This document shows positions 12,625-33,129 of a stretch of DNA of 64,000 nt, piece after piece. The translations under genes and the position numbers were made by a program. The notes beneath the pieces were generated by a model. It was not told where the DNA came from, ran no database searches, and saw only the letters and a list, made by a program, of their open reading frames with translations. Each line of letters starts with the position of its first letter. Position 1 is the stretch's first letter. Source of the DNA: the human T2T-CHM13v2.0 reference genome, Homo sapiens; assembly GCF_009914755.1 (NCBI RefSeq), contig NC_060928.1, one strand, 5' to 3'.

Positions 12625-12771
12625 GGGATGGTGGATCCAGGAGAGAAGATTAGTGCCACACTGAAAAGAGAATTTGGTGAGGAAGCTCTCAACTCCTTAC
12701 AGAAAACCAGTGCTGAGAAGAGAGAAATAGAGGAAAAGTTGCACAAACTCTTCAGCCAAGACCACCTAGTG
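12625..12771 (+). CDS. NUDT9: NUDT9 coding exon with the Nudix box ([24 protein letters not shown]...QDHLV)
   Basis: ctcttag| ... gtg|gtaag; 147 nt, phase 0/0; GX5EX7REUXEE Nudix signature. Confidence 0.97.
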
Positions 12772-20470: not shown

Positions 20471-21496
20471 AATAAACACAAAGGAAAATGTTAGCCATGT
20501 GTGAATTTTAAACTTCTTGGTAGTCACATTAAAAATAAAAAGAAACAAGTAAAATGGTTTGTAATTATTTAATCCATTATATCCAAAATATCTTAATATG
20601 TGATCAATATATAATTATTAAGTAATTATTTTGGTTCTATAAAAACAGGAACAGAGGTGGAGGTCTCTGTGAGTTAGTGTTTTTTTGTTAGGAAAGAAAT
20701 GTTAAAGATTGAAATAGATTTTTGAGAAAAGCATGGTTAATGTTATAAATCCCAGAGGAAAGGAGGGGGTTGGTGCTTTGGGGGTTTTTGGAAGCAAGGA
20801 AAAGGAAAGAAAAGTAGTACTGCCTTGTCTTAGTGGACATGTTTATCTCATTCTGGCTAAGGATCTCTGTTGGAAAGCCCTGTGATAGGAACTCCTATCC
20901 ACCTAAGTAGGGTTGGGCTATAGCTGGAGCATCTCAGGAAAAGCTTTAGGGGAGACAGACATTATCGTTTTCTTTCCTTCAGATGTTTGAAAAAGATTAG
21001 GCTTACTCTGTAGCTAGAGAGCAGAATTACGGTTAAGGTAAAACAAAGTGTTGTTCTGTTTTTTGTTTCGTTTATTTGATGTCAGAAATTTTGGTGGTAA
21101 ACCTGAATTGAACTGACAGGAGGCTTTTTTCCCCTTAGTTACGACTGTAGATTTTCCTGAAAAGCATTAGAATGTTTGATTTCAGGATACCTTGAACCCT
21201 TCTGGAGTAGTTATAAATAGGGCTTATGTATGTATTAACTTCTAAAAATCCATAAAATCCTGGTCCCTACGGTGAGTAATAAGGGATTGATACTTGATGA
21301 GGATGACCTGCTCAAGAGGTTAGATGGCCTTCCTGCATGGAAGAGTTGGCTTCTACTTTCACCATTTGGCAGGAAGAAATTGCTTCTTCCTATCACTGAA
21401 TGGAGTTCTCCAAAATTGAAGCTACTTGTTTACAAAAGCTCTTTTAACAGTTTGAGCAATTTTCTGAAAATTTTGGCCTTTACTTGTGTGTCATAG

Positions 21497-21802
<306 letters not shown>

Positions 21803-21839
21803 TAATAGTTTTGATACATTTGAACTGCCATTAATAAAG

Positions 21840-22024
21840 ACATTTGGTTATATTAAAGGTTTATTTAAAGTATGACTAAAGCCCATGGTCTAGATACATT
21901 CTTTATGGTTTTTTGGAGTTTTCACTGGAACATGCACAAAGTATGCAAAATTATAAAACTACCATCAACTATAGTTAAGATAGAAGTAGATACTCTTCTG
22001 ATAACTGTAAATATCCAGCACCAT
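21840..22024 (-). other. SCPPPQ1: Candidate SCPPPQ1 last (3'UTR-only) exon with poly(A) signal
   Basis: Textbook acceptor CTAACattttgttttttccctattatag| at 22025; AATAAA on the - strand at 21865-21860. Confidence 0.6.
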
Positions 22025-23039
22025 CTATAATAGGGAAAAAACAAAATGTTAGTTTCAGATATTCCTAGAGGAAGATCTATCTGCTATATCACTAGGTAAT
22101 ATTCCCTTCATACTTATTTTCCTTATGTCTTATGTAAAATGAATGTTTTTTATTTTAGAGACATTTAGTAAAATAAGTAATAATATTTGCCATTTACTGA
22201 GTATCTATTATATTTCTTAATTCTATCCACATCCTGTTAGGTAGTAGTATTCCCATTTCACAAATGAATACATTGATATTTAGAAAGGTTGCCCGCAGTT
22301 TTATTTGCTAGTAGAGTTGGGATTTGAATCATGGTCTGACTGGGTTGCAAAGCTATTCTGTCTATTGTATTCCCTACTAAGGTTAAGAGTCTTTTATGAT
22401 ACATTATTTAAGTATGCAGCTTGGAAGATTATGTGTAACATAAGTAGTACTCATGTTATTCATAGTATTGCAGTTATGATTTGTGAGTTGAAATTTAAGG
22501 GCCACACCTGATTTGGCTAGCATTGTTGAAGTTGTTTGTGTAATTTTGGCCCAAAGATAGTTTATTTGATGATAACCTAAGGATAAAGGGCCACAGTCAG
22601 TGTTTGTTTTGTCAGCAGGTGTTCTTGAGCTTTTGAAAGCATTTCAAACTCAAATAGAAGGATATGCAAAGTTTCCTTAGGATCATAACTACTTTAAATA
22701 TTTGGTGGCTAAAGGGGGAACTTGAAAATTCTGAGCACTTCGAGAGGCTATTCTTATTTAACAGTATGTTTTCTTATGCTTAGGACTTCTGGTGGTGGTT
22801 ATTTTCTAAAATATTTCTGGAGTTTTAATAAACTGACTTTAAAATACATCCTTTGAAGAAAGCATTTGTAATTAATTGGTCTTGTTTACACCTATTTTCA
22901 TCATATTATTAATTTACCGTTGTGGACACAATCAGAGGCAATTAAACTCATGATAAAAATATTGAAAAGGATATAAATGCATGAAAGAATTTGGAGATTT
23001 TACTAACCATACGTAACTTCTGGCATAGTAGTGGGAGAA

Positions 23040-23045
23040 TTATTT
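23040..23045 (-). CDS. SCPPPQ1: SCPPPQ1 penultimate exon coding K-stop (exon about 23008/23013-23045)
   Basis: tattttgacag|AAA TAA, then donors |gtatgg (23012) or |gttagt (23007); casein-like short stop exon; an alternative candidate lies at 23653-23727. Confidence 0.6.
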   Translation of the reverse strand, partial: K

Positions 23046-23730
23046 CTGTCAAAATAGATAATACAGATTATAGTTATAATTTATATGAAGATATTTTCAC
23101 CACAATTCCTTCTTCACCCATGCCTCCCATTTTATGGTTATTTTATTGCTGATGTGTTAATATTGGTATAATCATGTATGTTGGAGGTGGAAAATAATGT
23201 GGAACTGTTAAATGCTGATAAATTGAATCCTTAACTGTTTACAGCATAGAGCTTAATCTCTCCCACTTGGCCTCAGATAGTCTAAGTATTTGAAATGGTA
23301 AAAGGTACTAAATAAGCACTTCAGGGCAATGTAACTTGTTAGGAGAGAAGCAGTTGGGTGGAAATCCAGTTTCTTTCTCCAAGGCTGTAGTACATACACT
23401 ATGATTGGGCCCGTGAATAGCCTCTGTAGTCCAGCCAGGACAACATAGCAAGATCCTGTTTCTTAAAAATATTAGAACAACAAAAGGGATATATACCTTT
23501 TTGGTCTCCACGTTTTTCTTTCTTTCTTTCTTTCTTTCTTTTTTTTGGTATGTATTTTACATGAAAGCAAACTTCAGTGAAAGTCAAAGTAGAAGTCAAA
23601 GTTTGTAGCCTTTGTATCCAGCAAGTTAATGCTTTTTGTTAAGATGTGTTACCTTGCCTTGAGATCAGTCCATTTCTAGGTGTGGCAGTTTTACAGTAGG
23701 CTTTTCTCATTATTTACTATGAATTGCCTA

Positions 23731-24049
<319 letters not shown>

Positions 24050-24333
24050 GCCTGAAGCAAACTTTGTTGTTTGAAATTTCATATTGCATATATGCCTGTA
24101 AATTTAAATTTTGTGAAATATCAAGGACATTATTAAAAAATACCTTTTTAGACTGGCAAAAATTTTGATGTAAAGATTTTGGAGGAAATGAGTTTATAAC
24201 TTATGAGTTCTAGTTTGGTAGATCAGTTGAGGTTGACTCTCATATTTTTATAGTTACAAAGAGTTTCTCTTACCTTTCGTGGCATTGAATATAACTTACC
24301 TTTATCAATTTAGTCATGGAAATAAAATCTTAC

Positions 24334-24345
24334 CCCAGAGAAGTT
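24334..24345 (-). other. SCPPPQ1: Degenerate 12-nt SCPPPQ1 exon 8 (NFSG) lacking its AG acceptor
   Basis: Branch-like TACTAA, about 30-nt T tract, then ttttGG|AAC TTC TCT GGG|gtaaga; donor intact, acceptor reads GG. Confidence 0.6.
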
Positions 24346-24449
24346 CCAAAAGTTAAAAAAAAAAACAACAAAAAAAAATTTAGTAAGATGTTATCTTTAG
24401 TCTATTAAGTAAATGTGTAGTTTATTATAGCATAAAAATAGAGCCTTAC

Positions 24450-24479
24450 CCCTAGTTGGTTCAAAATAGCAATGAGTAA
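24450..24479 (-). CDS. SCPPPQ1: SCPPPQ1 exon 7: LLIAILNQLG
   Basis: ttcttccttcacag| ... ggg|gtaagg; 30 nt, phase 0. Confidence 0.82.
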
Positions 24480-25212
24480 CTGTGAAGGAAGAAAAATTGA
24501 TGATCAGTGCTGTCAATAGGTTAATTTTTAAACCTACATTTAACTTATTACATATGCAAGTTAGTATACTTTGTATACAAAAATCTATTTTATTGAAAAA
24601 TTCCATTTTATTGCTTAGTATATTATTTATATGATACAAGATTTTAAAATGACAATATCTGGATTTAAATACCTTTAATTCACAGAAATATTTTCTTTCT
24701 ACAGCTTTGTAATGATATTTACCATATTTGAAAGTTAGAAAATTGATTTGAATGGTTAAGAAACCCTCTGTGTACACTTCCATACAAGTCCCATCTTTCA
24801 TAAATGATTCAGATTCCCTGTGTGAATGATACTTGAACTAAAATTTTAGGACAACTATGAATACTTTGTTTTGAGAACTTGCTTATACAAGCAGTTTTAC
24901 TGGAAAATTGTTTTGTAGCATCCACATGGTCCTGTTTTAAGATTCTGGCAGCTTGCTCAAGAAATTGACCAACTCCGTCTAAAAGGTGAATCTCTTTACT
25001 TGTTGAGCTGTCTGTCTTAGAGTGTATGCAGTAATATTTAAGCTAAACACTGTCCCAACTGTGACAGATCTTAGGCACGAACAATGCCCTCAGGTAGCGT
25101 TTGTTCTGTTAGGGTGCCTTTCTCTGCTCCCTACCTTAATTAGGACCATTGAGAGATGTTGAATGTAGTATTTATATGGACTTTATAGAATAACAGGGCA
25201 GAATATATTTAC

Positions 25213-25239
25213 CGCGATAAGATCATTAGGTGTGAGGAC
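25213..25239 (-). CDS. SCPPPQ1: SCPPPQ1 exon 6: VLTPNDLIA
   Basis: ttcctttattctag| ... gcg|gtaaat; 27 nt, phase 0. Confidence 0.85.
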
Positions 25240-25592
25240 CTAGAATAAAGGAAACAGTCAAAGTAAGGAGTTGTAATTCAGCATTTCATCTACTTTTGTA
25301 TCTTATATATTTTATATTAGCTTGGTAAATGAGAGCATGCTTTTTAGAATTCTCATCATTTCTAAAGTTCAATTATTAAAATTCACTAATATTTTAAGTA
25401 CCCCCCCCAACCCCAAACCTATCTCTGGAAACATGTAGTCTGTATTTTCTGTTGTGGGCTCCAGACATAGCAGTGACTTCTTGGAAAGATTATTAAACCT
25501 ATGATTATTGGGTTTGAAAAAGACTATTTTGGGATCACCTCTTTCTGAAAGAAAACTTTAATAATATTACTTCCTATAATCGTAATAGGAGT

Positions 25593-25901
<309 letters not shown>

Positions 25902-26551
25902 TTATTACTTGGAGTTAATATGCTGAAATATACATAACTTTTTTGTATGATACTGAATCCGCCTCATCTTATGTATTTATCACTAATTCAGTAAAATCTT
26001 TTCAAAAGTAAAATTTAAGCAATTCCTTTATACCATGACTGTAACCTTAAATCTATTTCAAATGCTTCTAGGATATATTACATTTCAATAAGAATGCATT
26101 TTACCCCCACTAATGACAAACGTAAGCATAAAATTTTAGAGGTGAAATGGACTTTGTAAATCATCTGTTGTCACTGTTTTATATTCTAGAAGAGGATAAG
26201 GGTCACAGGAGTTAAAGATAATTCCAAAGTATTAAAGGGCAGACATGGAGCTTACATCTCCAGATCATTTAACTTCAAATTAAGTGCTTTTTCTACTAGT
26301 TGGTCCCTGGGTTTATTCTACACAAATAAGGAAAGTTTCAGGTCTTAGGTAATTCAGTTTTCAAGGATATGTGAAATTTGAACATTCAATTACTCAAATC
26401 AAACAAAATATCAATAACTAATGGTCCCCCAAAGAGAATGTTAGCCAGTAATTATTGGTATCAAATTCTCCCCAATTAAATCTAAAGAATTTTCAAGTTT
26501 TTGTTTTGTATTAGTTTAAGTATTTCCTAAGGAAGCTTTAAGTATAACCAC

Positions 26552-26590
26552 CTGATTTGGATTGTAAGGAAAAGGAAAAGGAATAGAAAT
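26552..26590 (-). CDS. SCPPPQ1: SCPPPQ1 exon 5: ISIPFPFPYNPNQ
   Basis: Long T tract + gtag| acceptor; 39 nt, phase 0; weak donor CAG|GTGGTT. Confidence 0.82.
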
Positions 26591-26961
26591 CTACAAAAAA
26601 AAAAAAAAAGTAAATTGTGAATGAAACTGTGAACACTTTCTCTTGCTTTTTCTCATTTATTCATACATTCACTCATCCTTCCACCCATCTATCCATCCAT
26701 CCCTACAATATTTACTGAGCAATTATTCTATATCTAGGGTTTAGGGATAGCAGTAAATGACACTTAGAGAGCTCACCTTCTATTTGGTGGAGATTAGAAT
26801 CTAGTGGGTTCAATATAATATTTTCTTTCAAGAGGTATGGTTGTTCTTCTTAATTTATCTAACTTAAAGCCCAGGAATCTGTCTTAATGTGTTGATAGTT
26901 TTTACAAATCTACCACTTTCCCTACAGTGTTACTTTCTTTGCTTGCTTTGAAGATACTAGT

Positions 26962-26975
26962 CTGCCATCTGGTGG
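26962..26975 (-). promoter_or_regulatory. CTCF consensus motif in SCPPPQ1 intron 4
   Basis: CCACCAGATGGCAG, a full match to CCASYAGRKGGCRS; occupancy unknown. Confidence 0.55.
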
Positions 26976-27122
26976 TAGGAAGAGTTTCCATTTCACAGAA
27001 GAGTGATTCTTTTAATTGTCATATAGATTTAAATAAATTTAAATTTAAATGTTAACAGTGATTCCTAAGTTCTAATTATAAACCAAGACTCCAAGATTTT
27101 GCATCAGTTTAAAATAAATCTT

Positions 27123-27882
<760 letters not shown>

Positions 27883-28824
27883 AAGGGGTATGTGAAGTTT
27901 TAAAACGTATGTGATTTTTAAAGAAAAAAATCATTGCTTAAATACTTATCCAAATTTAACAAGGCCCCAATCTGTGTTGCAGCATCATTATTTTAGACTA
28001 AAATAATTTTCTACCCCCAAATTGCCTTGTGCTTTTCAAGTCTGCACCCATGCACTTGCTGTTCCTCTGCCTGAAATGTTTCATCCATTTGTCTTCCTTC
28101 AAGACCTGGTTCAGATACTGTCTTCTCTGAAGTCTTTGATCCATAGCTTTGTATTTGTGTCTCGAAATACTTATCAAATTACACTGTAGTTTCCCTTTAT
28201 GAGTCTCTCTTCCTCATCAGATCTGAACTTATACTGTTTGTACCTCAAGCACTCACCGTTGACTCTATAATGTAGTCGACTTACAAAAGTGTTATATATA
28301 GAATAAAGGCAACTCTATTGTGTATTTAGCATTGTTCCAAACTTTATTGAAAAAATGTTTTAAGAATCCAGATATTAGGAGAGCCTGGAGAGAGTCCAAA
28401 CAGAAAAGCAAAATAACTATTTTGCTTGAACTTGGGAAAAAGTTATATAAAGCTGGGGAAAAAAATCTTCTTAGAGAAAGAAAGCAACAAGGTGAATTTG
28501 AAAAAGCAAAAGAATGGATATTATAGAAAGAAGTATTCTCTTCATAAAGAGTAAGCTCGTAACGGTCAAAGTAATTCAGCACAAACACCTTTTTAATAGT
28601 AAGTGCAGAGAAACACTGCGAGAGGGCACTGAAGATTTGGAGGGAAATTTGCTAGCCCCTTGCCACGTTCCACTATAAGCTATATGGGAGAGAAGTTTGA
28701 ATAGCTGATTCCTGGGGACTGCCTAAAGCCTCATATTTCAGTATCAAAATTTGGAAAGTTTCATAACCACCATCCAACAAATAAATCCTTTTAGCTATTT
28801 CAGATTCCCCAAACCCATGCTTAC

Positions 28825-28902
28825 CAGGGGCGGTTGCGGAGGTAGGGGAAAGAGGACCTGAGGGAAAAATGGTGGTACTTGTGGTGGGTAAAAGATAAAT
28901 CT
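28825..28902 (-). CDS. SCPPPQ1: SCPPPQ1 exon 4: RFIFYPPQVPPFFPQVLFPLPPQPPL
   Basis: tttttacag| ... ctg|gtaagc; 78 nt, phase 0; Pro/Gln-rich. Confidence 0.92.
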
Positions 28903-28994
28903 CTGTAAAAAGAAACATGATGTCAGTCATTTCAGACAATGGCAAACTTTTAAAATGATGAATGCATTATTTAAAAATACAATTAGAAGTTCAC

Positions 28995-29027
28995 CTGTTC
29001 ACTGGAACTTTCAGCATATTGTTCGAG
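28995..29027 (-). CDS. SCPPPQ1: SCPPPQ1 exon 3: LEQYAESSSEQ
   Basis: ttttgcaag| ... cag|gtgaac; 33 nt, phase 0; ends in the SSSE (S-x-E) motif typical of SCPP exon 3. Confidence 0.9.
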
Positions 29028-30607
29028 CTTGCAAAACAATAACAGCAACAAGGTAAAGCAGCATATGGAAATACATTATCCACTAAAGAGAGGTTTTGTT
29101 CTAAAGGAGAATAAGTAATAAGCCACTATGGAGCATTATACCCATCAGTAATGTAACTTCACTTCTGAAATAAAAAGCAGTTGGATATCTAATAGGGAAA
29201 AGTTTAATTAATTTTGTGCAATGATTTGGAAGACCAAGGCTTTTTGCTTTTAAATTTATATCCAAAGAATGCTTTTATTTACATTTCTTAAGATTAATTC
29301 CATATTACATGAATATTTCCTTTTGTAAATCTTTGAATGGTGTTCTTGATTTAGTTCTCAGTAGTTATAAACTCAAAGTGAAGGGAGTGTGGAAATGTAC
29401 ACTTAAGTTCTGCACCCCAAACACAAATTTTGAAAGCTCCCTCACTTCTTCAAAAGCTCCTTTGATACAAAGTGTGCAGGGGAGAGAGTTTCTTGCCTAC
29501 TTGGTGCCCTCATATTCAGACTAGTAAACCCAGATTAGACTCAGTGGATCTCATTTGTATATAGTCAGTTGATGACAAAATGTCTATATAGGTGAAGTTA
29601 ATGATGTTCTGGGATTACAGTATTTCATATATTCTTAGATGCTATCATTGTCAAAAGCACCATTATTTCATAAATTACCAAAAAAGAAAAGCGCTGCTGT
29701 TAAGCTGCCGTGACACTTTATCAAATTGTGTTTTTAAGACACAGCTCAATTTCAGAGCTGCTGAAATATCAAAAAGTACATATTAGAATTAATGAAATAT
29801 GTATACTGCAGCATTCCCATCAGCCTAAAGAAACAGGCAATACAAATTGTTTGGAATTTTAGACCACGATACTTGCCAGCTTTGGCAAAAAGGATTGTGG
29901 TCTAAAGAAACAAATTAGGTTTGTTATCAAGGGCACTATAGATGAATGTAGCTTTTTATCCAAATCTGGTTTTCAAAAATTGGACTTTAAAGGTGTGTCT
30001 GTATGATCACTCAAATATAATTCAGGCATAAGTTGTTTTTATATTCATAATTTAGTAATCAATGTAAGTTATCTTAAATATTTCCTTCTTTAAAATCAAA
30101 TCTACAATGAGGTAGATAGTCCTTTGGTGTCAGAGCATTTCCATGTAACAGCCTTTTAAGAAAACATGAGATGGTTTGGGGCAAGGGCATTACAAATGAA
30201 ACTCAATTCAAACTGCTTAATTTAGACCTGGGTCACTGCAGAATATTTGTTCTATATCACTGAGTTTATTGAGAACATCCTATCTTTCAAATAGGACCCT
30301 TCTCTGCCTTAGATGCATTAAAAAAATCATCTCCGTGCAACTCTGAGGTGTTCCTAGGACTCATTTTATAGACAAGGAAACCATGGGTTAGTTCAAAGTC
30401 ACACAGCTAGCACATGGCATATGGAGCTGAGATTTGTACTGGGCAGAGTCTTGGACTGACAAAGAGTGGTGAACTCCTAGTTCTATGACTTTCCTGGGTT
30501 CCGCTTTCCTCTTTTGTGAAATGAAAAGATAAGACCTGCTTTCTAGCCGAGAAATGCGATGACTCTAAATCTGAAATTGAGTCAGCAGCTGAGGAGGGTG
30601 TACTCAC

Positions 30608-30664
30608 GGGGATGGGCAGAGCAGTGGCAGTGCTCAAAAGGCCAGCCAAGATGAGAAATTTCAT
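30608..30664 (-). CDS. SCPPPQ1: SCPPPQ1 exon 2: signal peptide MKFLILAGLLSTATALPIP (exon starts at 30678)
   Basis: ttccag| acceptor, 14-nt UTR, AGAATGA start context, 57 coding nt, |gtgagt donor, phase 0; casein/SCPP-type signal-peptide exon. Confidence 0.92.
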
Positions 30665-30964
30665 TCTAAAGGTCGAGCCTGGAATTGAAGGGGTAGGAGA
30701 TCATTTCGAGTTTTTTTCTATGTAAGTCCTATTCCTATTTAGAGGTGTTGAAATAGTGGTCAAGATAAATCCTGCCTCCAAACATAGGTTTTGTAAGCCT
30801 ACAAGAGTGTTTTTAAAAGCTTTGAATTCCTTAGACAAGACATGCACTGTTTAGCTCCCAACATAGCCCATTACTTTCTACTTTCTTATAAAGTTACAGT
30901 TCGGCCTATACACTGTACATGTTTGGTCCCTGAAGTTGCGTTTGTGATCTCTACACACAAATCC

Positions 30965-31277
30965 TTTTTTTTTTTTTTTTTTTTTTTGAGACAGGGTCTT
31001 GCTCTGTCACTCAGGCTGGAGTGCAGTGGCACAATCATAGCCTCCTGTACCCTCGAACTGCTGGGCTCAAGTGATCCTTCTGCCTCAGTCTCCCAAGGAG
31101 CTAGGACTACAGGTGTGCACCACCACACTTGGCTAATTTTAAAAAAATTTTCTTAGAGATGGGGTCTTGCTATGTTGCCCCCCTGTTGCAAGGATGGTCT
31201 TGAACTTCTGGCCTCAATCAACCTTCCCACCACAGCCTTCCAAAGTGCTGGGATTACAGGTGTGAGCCACTGTGCTC
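30965..31277 (-). mobile_element. AluJ in predicted SCPPPQ1 intron 1
   Basis: TSD tctac(a/t)cacaaatc. Confidence 0.92.
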
Positions 31278-31419
31278 AATTCTACTCACAAATCTTTAAA
31301 CACCAGTGTTACATCATGCTTATTATTAGTAATTGATCACTACTGGCTAAAATGAGAGGAAAGTTTTTATGTAATACACAAATAAATCCACCTGAAGCTT
31401 GTACCTCTGTGAGACTTAC

Positions 31420-31460
31420 CAGGCCTTCATATAGTCTGGTTGCTGTTATTGCCAGTTATA
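31420..31460 (-). other. SCPPPQ1: Candidate non-coding exon 1 of SCPPPQ1 (5' end uncertain)
   Basis: Strong donor CTG|GTAAGT at 31420/31419, the nearest one upstream of exon 2; SCPP genes have a short non-coding first exon; a competing donor AAG|GTAAGT sits at 31644. Confidence 0.5.
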
Positions 31461-32814
31461 GTTCTCGGGAAGGAAATTGTATGGGAAAAATTTTGTAAGA
31501 TGTAATGGGTTGGTAGAAAATCAGCACAATATGAGTAAATTCAGATTCAATAAAGGAAATCAACTGGCCTTTTATTGGTCCATTGGTTCTGAAAGGAGAC
31601 ATTTTTATGTTTTAAAAATCGCACTTAATTCAAATTAACTTACCTTGTGAGTTTCAAACCAAATCACTGTATTCTGGAATTGGATTTTGAAAGAAAAACA
31701 ACTTTATCATGTTATTATTAAGACTTATCTCCAGCATTTGAGGCAAGTTATATCTATAAATCACACTTCATCTGTTATATATATCTAAAACCCAACTCTG
31801 ATTTCAATCTTAGTGCTACTTTGCCTGAATTTAGGCAACTTATTTCCCTTTTCCTTTTTCATGTTTTTTCTTTGTATTTTTCTTCTTTCTGGATTCAAAC
31901 ACTAATTTCTTTCTTCTTATTAGAAGTGGACCTGTTAGAAATCATTAAATTACCCAATACAAGAATATGTTACATTCTTTTATCTAGTGCATTAGAATCA
32001 GTCCAAATTATACTATATATCTCTTCAATTACCTTTGCTTCAGTGGCCCTTGGAGCAACAAATTCAAGGAGCAGTGTGATCACCTAGAATCTCTATGCCC
32101 ATCTAGTATTTAAGCCATGTTACTAATGCCTTTATGGTTATGGGCAATATGAGTCACAAAATTCAAAGCTAAACTGAATAATTGCTTTCACACCAGGAGC
32201 TCCAACTTCCAAAATATCTCAATTACACAGAGGTAGACTTACAGACTGATTACTGAGAAAATAACTGAGAAAATAATCTCTTAGGTTGGGATTAGAGTAT
32301 GTCTTTATCACAAACAACCCACAATTAAAAATTGTGACCACCAAGAATATTAACGTGCCTCTATAATAGATGAGCTAGCTGTACATGTAAGAGCCTTAAA
32401 TGATACAGAAATTTAAGGTTTGAGATTTTCTCTTATTAAATATTTTTCGTTTCAAAATGAATATTATTTTCAAACAAAATTTTTTAGTAGATATTGAGGT
32501 GGTTTCCTTACCTTGGTGTTAAAATCACTTTTCACTATTCTAAAATATTTTTGAAAGTTGTCTGAGGGTAAAAGATAATTTAGGCCTAATTAATACCTCT
32601 GAATACAACTTCACTGTTCCCAGCAACCTAGTTTGTAATTAGCTAAGACCTTTTCAGCTTCATATAAAAACGTTCTGAAATTTGGAATAGTTCCTAAAAT
32701 TATTTCTGTAGTTGGAAAAAGTTACAAATAATACTTAATTCGATTTTGATTAATCAAATTGAACTTAATTTTTTAGAAAGGACATAGTATGATATGGTTC
32801 TAGTTAAGGTAATT

Positions 32815-33129
<315 letters not shown>

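What the first reader, a model, noticed from the sequence alone, without database searches (positions are those of the whole stretch)
24334..24390. Apparently dead exon 8 of SCPPPQ1: branch point, T tract and donor intact but AG replaced by GG
Seen on the - strand: TACTAA, about 30 nt of T-rich tract, then ttttGG|AAC TTC TCT GGG|GTAAGA. This is an in-frame 12-nt exon (NFSG) missing only the invariant A of the acceptor (position 24347). Inference: NFSG+K* resembles the GFLGR-like C-terminus I recall for rodent SCPPPQ1, suggesting a lineage-specific or polymorphic splice loss. Exon 7 lies only about 100 nt upstream and could be co-skipped. Losing exons 7+8 gives 19+11+26+13+9+1 = 79 aa and removes most of the hydrophobic helix. 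I recall the curated human protein being about that length but cannot verify it.
Basis: partly seen in the sequence, partly recalled or inferred. Interest (0 to 1): 0.7.

Follow-up and report, generated by a model that had tools for sequence, protein, structure and literature searches.

The report
Lost micro-exon acceptor in human SCPPPQ1
A tiny 12-base exon that other mammals use near the end of the tooth-attachment gene SCPPPQ1 has lost its splice acceptor in this human genome, so splicing moves 17 bases downstream and gives the human protein a different tail.

Summary
On the minus strand a branch-like TACTAA and a T-rich tract are followed by GG (24347-24346), a 12-nt in-frame unit (24345-24334, NFSG) and GTAAGA.

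The unit is the human counterpart of a conserved 4-residue micro-exon. Of 38 mammalian SCPPPQ1 models, 22 carry [G/N][F/L][F/L/I/V]G at this point. Eleven of them, including the curated dog and horse precursors, then end in K, which is what human exon 9 (AAA TAA) would supply. Macaque and owl-monkey models start an exon exactly at the N, so an acceptor is inferred there in monkeys.

The exon is displaced rather than simply dead. The first AG after the branch region is the AG inside the old donor GTAAG (24330-24329). RefSeq exon 8 (24328-24300) starts there and uses a second donor at 24299. The 17-nt shift changes the frame and gives ...NQLG-ILFP* (79 aa).

Exon 7 is kept. The length of 79 aa arises because a different 13-aa exon is skipped.

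When the A-to-G change arose (human, ape or polymorphic) could not be tested.

This is an ordinary kind of event, seemingly undescribed for this gene, and of modest interest.

The parts
24450..24479 (-). SCPPPQ1 coding exon 7 (LLIAILNQLG), phase 0, donor GGG|GTAAGG; retained in the human model
   Evidence: hub annotation
24380..24387 (-). branch-point-like CTTACTAA (yUnAy CTTAC with A at 24384; TACTAA at 24385-24380)
   Evidence: sequence motif only, branch use not shown
24348..24379 (-). T-rich polypyrimidine tract. It gives 15/17 pyrimidines at -20..-4 of the dead site, equal to the best acceptor in the window
24346..24347 (-). GG where the acceptor AG of the micro-exon is expected (A missing at 24347)
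   Evidence: acceptor inferred in macaque and Aotus from models that start an exon at the next base
24334..24345 (-). relic 12-nt micro-exon AAC TTC TCT GGG (NFSG), orthologous to the GFLG/GFFG/NFFG unit of other mammals
24328..24333 (-). old micro-exon donor GTAAGA. Its AG (24330-24329) is the acceptor of RefSeq exon 8
24300..24328 (-). RefSeq exon 8; coding 24328-24314 = ILFP*, in a frame shifted by 17 nt relative to the micro-exon
   Evidence: hub annotation; composition test
24294..24299 (-). second donor GTAAGT used by RefSeq exon 8. The 39 nt from the old donor through the first five bases of this one (24333-24295) are conserved in other mammals
23008..23045 (-). exon 9. It starts AAA TAA (23045-23040), the ancestral terminal K and stop; in the human model it is 3' UTR

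Best explanation
The 12-mer is the relic of a conserved 12-nt, phase-0 micro-exon of SCPPPQ1. In other mammals it encodes [G/N][F/L][F/L/I/V]G and is followed by a last coding exon that supplies one Lys and the stop. In this human genome the acceptor reads GG instead of AG, which would be a single A-to-G transition at 24347. The branch region and polypyrimidine tract are still present. The next AG downstream lies inside the micro-exon's own donor GTAAG, and that is where the human mRNA's exon 8 begins. A pre-existing, conserved second donor 34 nt downstream of the old donor closes the new 29-nt exon. The 17-nt shift changes the frame, so the protein ends ...NQLG-ILFP* instead of ...NQLG-NFxG-K*. 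Shown here: the sequence, the AG-free zone, the RefSeq exon coordinates, the orthologue C-termini, and the fit of the published human protein to the ILFP tail. Inferred: that monkeys have AG at this site, that the A-to-G change caused the shift, and which branch point is used.
For: (1) Orthologues. Of 38 SCPPPQ1-like models, 22 carry a 4-residue unit right after NQLx. Eleven end unit+K (dog and horse 'precursor' records, Marmota, Ictidomys, Spermophilus, Peromyscus, Nannospalax, Psammomys, Jaculus, Chinchilla, Microtus). (2) Macaque X2 (NFFG...) and Aotus X2 (NFLG...) begin an exon exactly at the base after the human GG. (3) Human unit plus exon 9 still reads NFSG-K* with no other defect. (4) On the minus strand there is no AG between 24396 and 24330, so the RefSeq acceptor is the first AG after the branch-like motif. 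(5) The RefSeq acceptor is the poorest of 24 real acceptors in the window, with 9/17 pyrimidines against 11-15 for the others, and A at -3. The dead site has 15/17 and T at -3, so the tract belongs to the dead site. (6) PMC8660882 (passages read) takes the human sequence from GenBank MK322956.1. It gives Pro 22%, Leu 19%, Gln 9%, charge -3 and FPLPPQPP at 34-41. The ILFP model gives 21.5/18.5/9.2%, -3 and position 34. The NFSGK model gives 19.7/16.7/9.1% and -2. (7) Human Ser at unit position 3 is unique; all 22 other units have F/L/I/V there. This fits relaxed constraint.
Against: No primate genomic DNA could be read, so AG in monkeys is inferred from predicted protein models only. No ape model was visible; apes may be hidden inside 90% clusters. 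Both visible monkey models that hold the unit (2 of 2) read through the micro-exon donor (NFFG-VRFYFHD). So the K-ending form is not shown for any primate. 16 of 38 models lack the unit, although these look like read-through or truncated predictions. GRAVY (0.45) and hydrophobic content (42%) in the paper are not reproduced exactly by the ILFP model (0.53 and 48% with a 15-residue signal peptide plus Met). The window is one human haplotype, so polymorphism is untested.
Confidence: 0.75

Rival explanations
1. The micro-exon's short form (unit+K) was already abandoned in anthropoid primates. Monkeys would use the upstream acceptor with the downstream donor (46-nt exon, tail NFxG-VRFYFHD*). The human change would then have replaced that tail, not a GFLGK-type tail.
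For: The visible macaque and Aotus models that contain the unit both read through its donor. Human would read NFSG-VRFYFHD* over the same 46 nt. The second donor is functional in human (RefSeq exon 8).
Against: The same read-through appears in predicted models of rabbit, seal, two bats, a ground squirrel and Przewalski's horse. The curated horse record from the same genus ends GFFGK. Read-through may therefore be a prediction habit with 12-nt exons. The micro-exon donor GGG|GTAAGA and exon 9's AAA TAA are intact in human. X1 isoforms of the monkeys were not visible.
Confidence: 0.2
2. GG is a private or polymorphic allele of this assembly. Many humans would carry AG and include the micro-exon.
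For: Only one haplotype was read, and no population data were available.
Against: The RefSeq transcript, and the independently reported human protein, fit the ILFP tail and not NFSGK. The Ser at unit position 3 suggests some time without constraint.
Confidence: 0.05
3. Chance resemblance: the 12-mer never was an exon.
For: The bare motif occurs 3 times in the window.
Against: Position, frame and sequence match the 4-residue unit in 22 of 38 orthologue models. Seal and rabbit models align to 24342-24295 and 24336-24295.
Confidence: 0.02

Closest known systems
Cryptic 3' splice-site activation after loss of the natural AG (use of the first AG downstream of the branch point; established splicing knowledge, recalled)
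   Same: The natural AG is missing, the branch region and pyrimidine tract are kept, there is an AG-free zone, and the next AG is the one used in the annotated mRNA.
   Different: It looks like a lineage change rather than a disease allele, although fixation was not tested. The new acceptor is the AG inside the old exon's own donor GTAAG, so the whole 12-nt exon becomes the 3' end of the intron. A pre-existing conserved second donor closes the new exon.
Mammalian SCPPPQ1 C-terminus (dog and horse curated precursors, many rodents): ...ILNQL[G/Q]-GF[L/F/I/V]G-K
   Same: Same gene, same position and same exon order. The human DNA still holds unit plus K* in frame.
   Different: The human model ends ...NQLG-ILFP, with no terminal Lys. 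Primate models also lack the 13-residue IPIPxPFPxDPNQ exon (PMC8660882 passages).
Conserved micro-exons (30 nt or less) that depend on strong flanking signals (recalled general knowledge)
   Same: The exon is 12 nt and phase 0, with a strong tract, a consensus-like donor and conserved flanking intron. Non-primate read-through tails match the human translation at 45/68 residues, against 11/48 for the intron after exon 7.
   Different: No evidence here for neural or SRRM4-type regulation. The tissue is tooth-associated epithelium, according to the papers read.

Membership tests
SCPPPQ1 orthologue (P/Q-rich SCPP gene) | Sequence orthology of the coding exons to named SCPPPQ1 proteins | tested here: met
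   One search used the open frame around exon 5 and hit macaque SCPPPQ1 (E 1.7e-6). In one search the dog, seal, rabbit, marmot, deer-mouse and mole-rat proteins map exon by exon onto 30664-24450.
SCPPPQ1 orthologue (P/Q-rich SCPP gene) | Signal peptide, SxE phosphorylation motif and all coding exons in phase 0 (features recalled from the SCPP literature) | tested here: met
   In one search the coding exons are 57, 33, 78, 27 and 30 nt, all divisible by 3. The protein starts MKFLILAGLL... and has SSSEQ in the second coding exon. Cleavage and phosphorylation were not tested.
SCPPPQ1 orthologue (P/Q-rich SCPP gene) | Stop codon in the penultimate exon, last exon untranslated (recalled family trait) | tested here: not met
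   In the human RefSeq model the stop lies in exon 8 of 10, one exon earlier. The ancestral reading (unit + AAA TAA in exon 9 of 10) would meet it.
Conserved 4-residue micro-exon of SCPPPQ1 | Unit [G/N][F/L][F/L/I/V]G directly after ...NQLx, in phase 0 | tested here: met
   Human NFSG sits at the same point and in frame. Position 3 is Ser, which none of the 22 other units has.
Conserved 4-residue micro-exon of SCPPPQ1 | Functional AG acceptor in front of the unit | tested here: not met
   GG at 24347-24346. RefSeq exon 8 starts 17 nt downstream.
Conserved 4-residue micro-exon of SCPPPQ1 | Functional donor after the unit | tested here: inconclusive
   GGG|GTAAGA is consensus-like. Its use cannot be shown without RNA data.
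First-AG cryptic acceptor use | No AG between the branch region and the used acceptor | tested here: met
   In one search the AGs on the minus strand in 24449-24300 are at 24446, 24403, 24396, 24330 and 24301 only.
First-AG cryptic acceptor use | Experimental proof that the A-to-G change causes the shift | not testable with these tools
   This needs a minigene or junction reads from carriers of each allele or species.

The most novel reading that the evidence does not exclude
The second donor at 24299 may be an ancient, functional partner of the micro-exon across Boreoeutheria. The stretch just after the micro-exon that leads to it (39 nt were scored, 24333-24295) would then be more than a leftover. 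It could be a conserved alternative 5' splice site giving a second C-terminus (unit + VR[F/L]YF...). Or it could be a downstream U1 landing site that lets a 12-nt exon be recognised at all. The human lineage then rebuilt its C-terminus from these two old signals after a single base change, with the old donor's AG as acceptor and the helper donor as donor.
Probability: 0.3. Interest if true: 0.5.

Novelty: new member of a known kind. Interest (0 to 1): 0.35.

Why it matters
SCPPPQ1 is studied as a component of the basal lamina that seals gingiva to the tooth and as an antibacterial peptide source. Rat and human proteins are used side by side in that work (PMC7840901 and PMC8660882, passages read).

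That work notes that the human protein lacks one rat exon and has a shorter C-terminal helix. The passages I read give no genomic reason. Here the tail difference is traced to one base at a micro-exon acceptor.

- It shows that the human tail (ILFP, no Lys) is a frame-shifted novelty, not a diverged copy of GFLGK.
- It cautions against carrying C-terminal results over from rodent to human.
- It gives a simple test case for first-AG selection and for how 12-nt exons are defined.
- The human stop lies 52 nt before the last exon junction, against 32 nt in the ancestral reading (counted from the coordinates). This is at the edge of the recalled 50-55-nt rule for nonsense-mediated decay, so mRNA level might also be affected. 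That last point is inference.

Tried and rejected
1. Tandem-duplication origin of the micro-exon from the end of exon 7 (GGG|GTAAG + TATTT...). The local alignment scored 21, and 36 of 2000 shuffles reached it. Three of 16 other donors in the window scored 22-23 against the same stretch. Rejected.

2. The motif as evidence on its own. It occurs 3 times in the window, against 0.37 in shuffles. Too weak alone.

3. Rfam scan of 21000-33000: no family.

4. Sequences of rat and human protein in the supplements of PMC8660882 and PMC7840901. The figures are pictures and no letters are held.

5. Kawasaki et al. 2011 (doi 10.1093/molbev/msr020) is not held. Moffatt et al. 2014 (Cell Tissue Res) was not looked up, since it was assumed not to be held. 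Either may describe the exon structure, so 'not described' rests only and on the passages read.

7. Own-genome search: the 221-nt region is single copy. The only second hit is 41 nt of T-tract on another chromosome.

8. Ape status. No ape or human record appeared as its own row. No tool was available to list cluster members.

Full report
**Observation**

Read on the minus strand, the intron after SCPPPQ1 exon 7 (24479-24450, LLIAILNQLG, donor GGG|GTAAGG) contains these elements in order:
- CTTACTAA at 24387-24380;
- a T-rich tract at 24379-24348;
- GG at 24347-24346;
- AAC TTC TCT GGG at 24345-24334;
- GTAAGA at 24333-24328.

All coding exons of the RefSeq model are phase 0 (57, 33, 78, 27 and 30 nt), so the 12-mer is in frame. 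Followed by exon 9 (23045-23008, which starts AAA TAA) it would read ...NQLG-NFSG-K*.

As a bare motif it is not rare enough to convince. A 12-nt unit between a tract of at least 15/17 pyrimidines and GTRAG occurs 3 times on the two strands of the window, against 0.37 +/- 0.61 in 200 block shuffles.

RefSeq exon 8 is 24328-24300. Its donor is GTAAGT at 24299. The exon is 17 nt out of register with the 12-mer, so the frame changes. The model ends ...NQLG-ILFP* at 79 aa.

Exon 7 is retained. The real sum is 19+11+26+9+10+4.

**Orthologues**

A search with the window's open frame around exon 5 found macaque SCPPPQ1 models. Searches with the macaque model and then with a 14-sequence alignment gave 41 records. 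I set aside three of them: a misnamed Plecturocebus fragment and two caecilian U1-C-like proteins. That leaves 38 SCPPPQ1-like models.

- 22 of the 38 carry a 4-residue unit [G/N][F/L][F/L/I/V]G immediately after ...ILNQLx.
- 11 of these end unit+K. They include the records named 'precursor' for dog (GFFGK) and horse (GFFGK), plus Marmota, Ictidomys, Spermophilus, Peromyscus, Nannospalax, Psammomys, Jaculus, Chinchilla and Microtus.
- 8 read on through the unit's donor (unit + VR[F/L]YF...).
- 3 continue otherwise.
- 16 lack the unit. They read through an earlier donor or diverge or truncate earlier.

The ancestral boreoeutherian C-terminus is therefore a 12-nt micro-exon plus a one-codon last coding exon. 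This is what the human DNA still spells, except for the acceptor.

**Primates**

Macaque isoform X2 (...NQLG-NFFG-VRFYFHD) and Aotus X2 (...NQLG-NFLG-VRFHFLD) start an exon at exactly the base that follows the human GG. I infer that these monkeys have a usable acceptor there, presumably AG. I could not read their DNA.

Asn at unit position 1 is shared by human and both monkeys. Ser at position 3 is human only; all 22 other units have F/L/I/V. That fits loss of constraint after the acceptor was lost. No ape record was visible as its own row, so the change is dated only to after the split from Old World monkeys, and polymorphism is untested.

**Why splicing lands where it does**

On the minus strand the only AGs between the exon 7 donor and exon 8 are at 24446, 24403, 24396 and 24330. 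From the branch-like motif (A at 24384 or 24380) the first AG is the RefSeq acceptor, 51-55 nt away. A second yUnAy (TTAAC, A at 24353) lies 24 nt before it.

The RefSeq acceptor is the poorest of the 24 real acceptors annotated in the window. It has 9/17 pyrimidines at -20..-4, where the others have 11-15, and A at -3. The GG site has 15/17 and T at -3, equal to the best in the window. The strong tract was therefore built for the dead site, and the used AG is simply the next one available. This follows the recalled textbook rule of first-AG selection. The causal link is inferred, not shown.

**Independent check of the human tail**

PMC8660882 (passages read) takes the human sequence from GenBank MK322956.1. 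It reports Pro 22%, Leu 19%, Gln 9%, net charge -3, FPLPPQPP at residues 34-41 of Met + mature protein, absence of rat exon 5, and a shorter C-terminal helix than in rat. The table compares this with the two candidate tails, each with a 15-residue signal peptide removed and Met added.

| Value | PMC8660882 | ILFP model | NFSGK model |
|---|---|---|---|
| Pro | 22% | 21.5% | 19.7% |
| Leu | 19% | 18.5% | 16.7% |
| Gln | 9% | 9.2% | 9.1% |
| Net charge | -3 | -3 | -2 |
| GRAVY | 0.45 | 0.53 | 0.29 |
| FPLPPQPP start | 34 | 34 | 34 |

The published protein therefore carries the ILFP-type tail. GRAVY and the paper's 42% hydrophobic content (my count is 48%) are not matched exactly.

**The stretch behind the micro-exon**

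Models that read through the unit's donor give a window on the flanking DNA of other species. In six non-primates their tails match the human translation of 24333-24295 (VRFYFHD*IDKGK) at 45 of 68 positions. Models that read through the exon 7 donor match the human translation of that intron start at only 11 of 48 positions, again in six non-primates.

The tails of rabbit, seal, Molossus and Przewalski's horse all end DKSK where human has DKGK, which lies across the second donor. So the 39 nt from the old donor through the first five bases of the second donor are conserved well above a neighbouring intron start. This could be an old alternative donor or an exon-definition aid for a 12-nt exon. 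Or the read-through models could be prediction artefacts over a conserved splicing enhancer. I cannot decide between these. The curated horse record ends GFFGK while the predicted Przewalski's horse X1 reads through, which shows that both readings are drawn from near-identical loci.

**Consequences**

The human tail loses the terminal Lys and the G-x-x-G unit and gains ILFP.

The stop (24316-24314) lies 14 + 38 = 52 nt before the last exon junction. In the ancestral reading it lies 32 nt before it (counted). This is at the recalled 50-55-nt threshold for nonsense-mediated decay. The point is inference only.

**Rejected ideas and limits**

- A duplication origin of the unit from the end of exon 7 does not hold. 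Other donors in the window score as high.
- Rfam finds nothing in the gene.
- The region is single copy in the assembly.
- The literature I could search and the passages read do not describe the acceptor change.
- Kawasaki et al. 2011 was not held, and Moffatt et al. 2014 was not looked up. The sequence figures of the two Scientific Reports papers are images.

**Verdict**

This is a lineage change of an ordinary kind, loss of a 3' splice site with use of the next AG. Its one neat twist is that the old donor supplies the new acceptor.

Noticed in passing
window 26552-26590 (minus strand), with flanks 26546-26615: This is an intact-looking relic of the 13-residue exon (ISIPFPFPYNPNQ) that non-primate SCPPPQ1 proteins carry (IPIPxPFPxDPNQ). 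It has a long T tract, a TAG acceptor and an open frame, but a weak donor CAG|GTGGTT. The human RefSeq model and the macaque, Aotus and Callithrix models all lack it. PMC8660882 says the human protein lacks 'rat exon 5'.
   Followed up: partly
window 24295-24333 (minus strand): This 'intron' stretch after the micro-exon translates to VRFYFHD*IDKGK. It is 66% identical (45/68) to the read-through tails of rabbit, seal, bat, squirrel and horse models. The start of the preceding intron gives 23% (11/48). The stretch is conserved for an unknown reason, possibly an alternative donor or a splicing enhancer.
   Followed up: partly
window 23009-23053 (minus strand), exon 9: A ruminant-like record (P0012, 7 members) reads exon 9 in another frame (GFFG-NNSLTTMSEVTW against human translation NNSPTTMPEVTY). 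The K-stop may therefore be shifted by one base in that lineage, or the model may be off by one base at the acceptor.
   Followed up: no
P0037 (Megaptera novaeangliae model): The humpback whale SCPPPQ1 model diverges and ends right after the ...NPNQ exon (79 aa). This may reflect decay of the gene in a toothless whale, or only a poor model.
   Followed up: no
window 12700 region (minus strand): The only other site in the window with a strong pyrimidine tract, AG, a 12-nt unit and GTRAG lies antisense to NUDT9 exon 12625-12771. It is probably chance.
   Followed up: no
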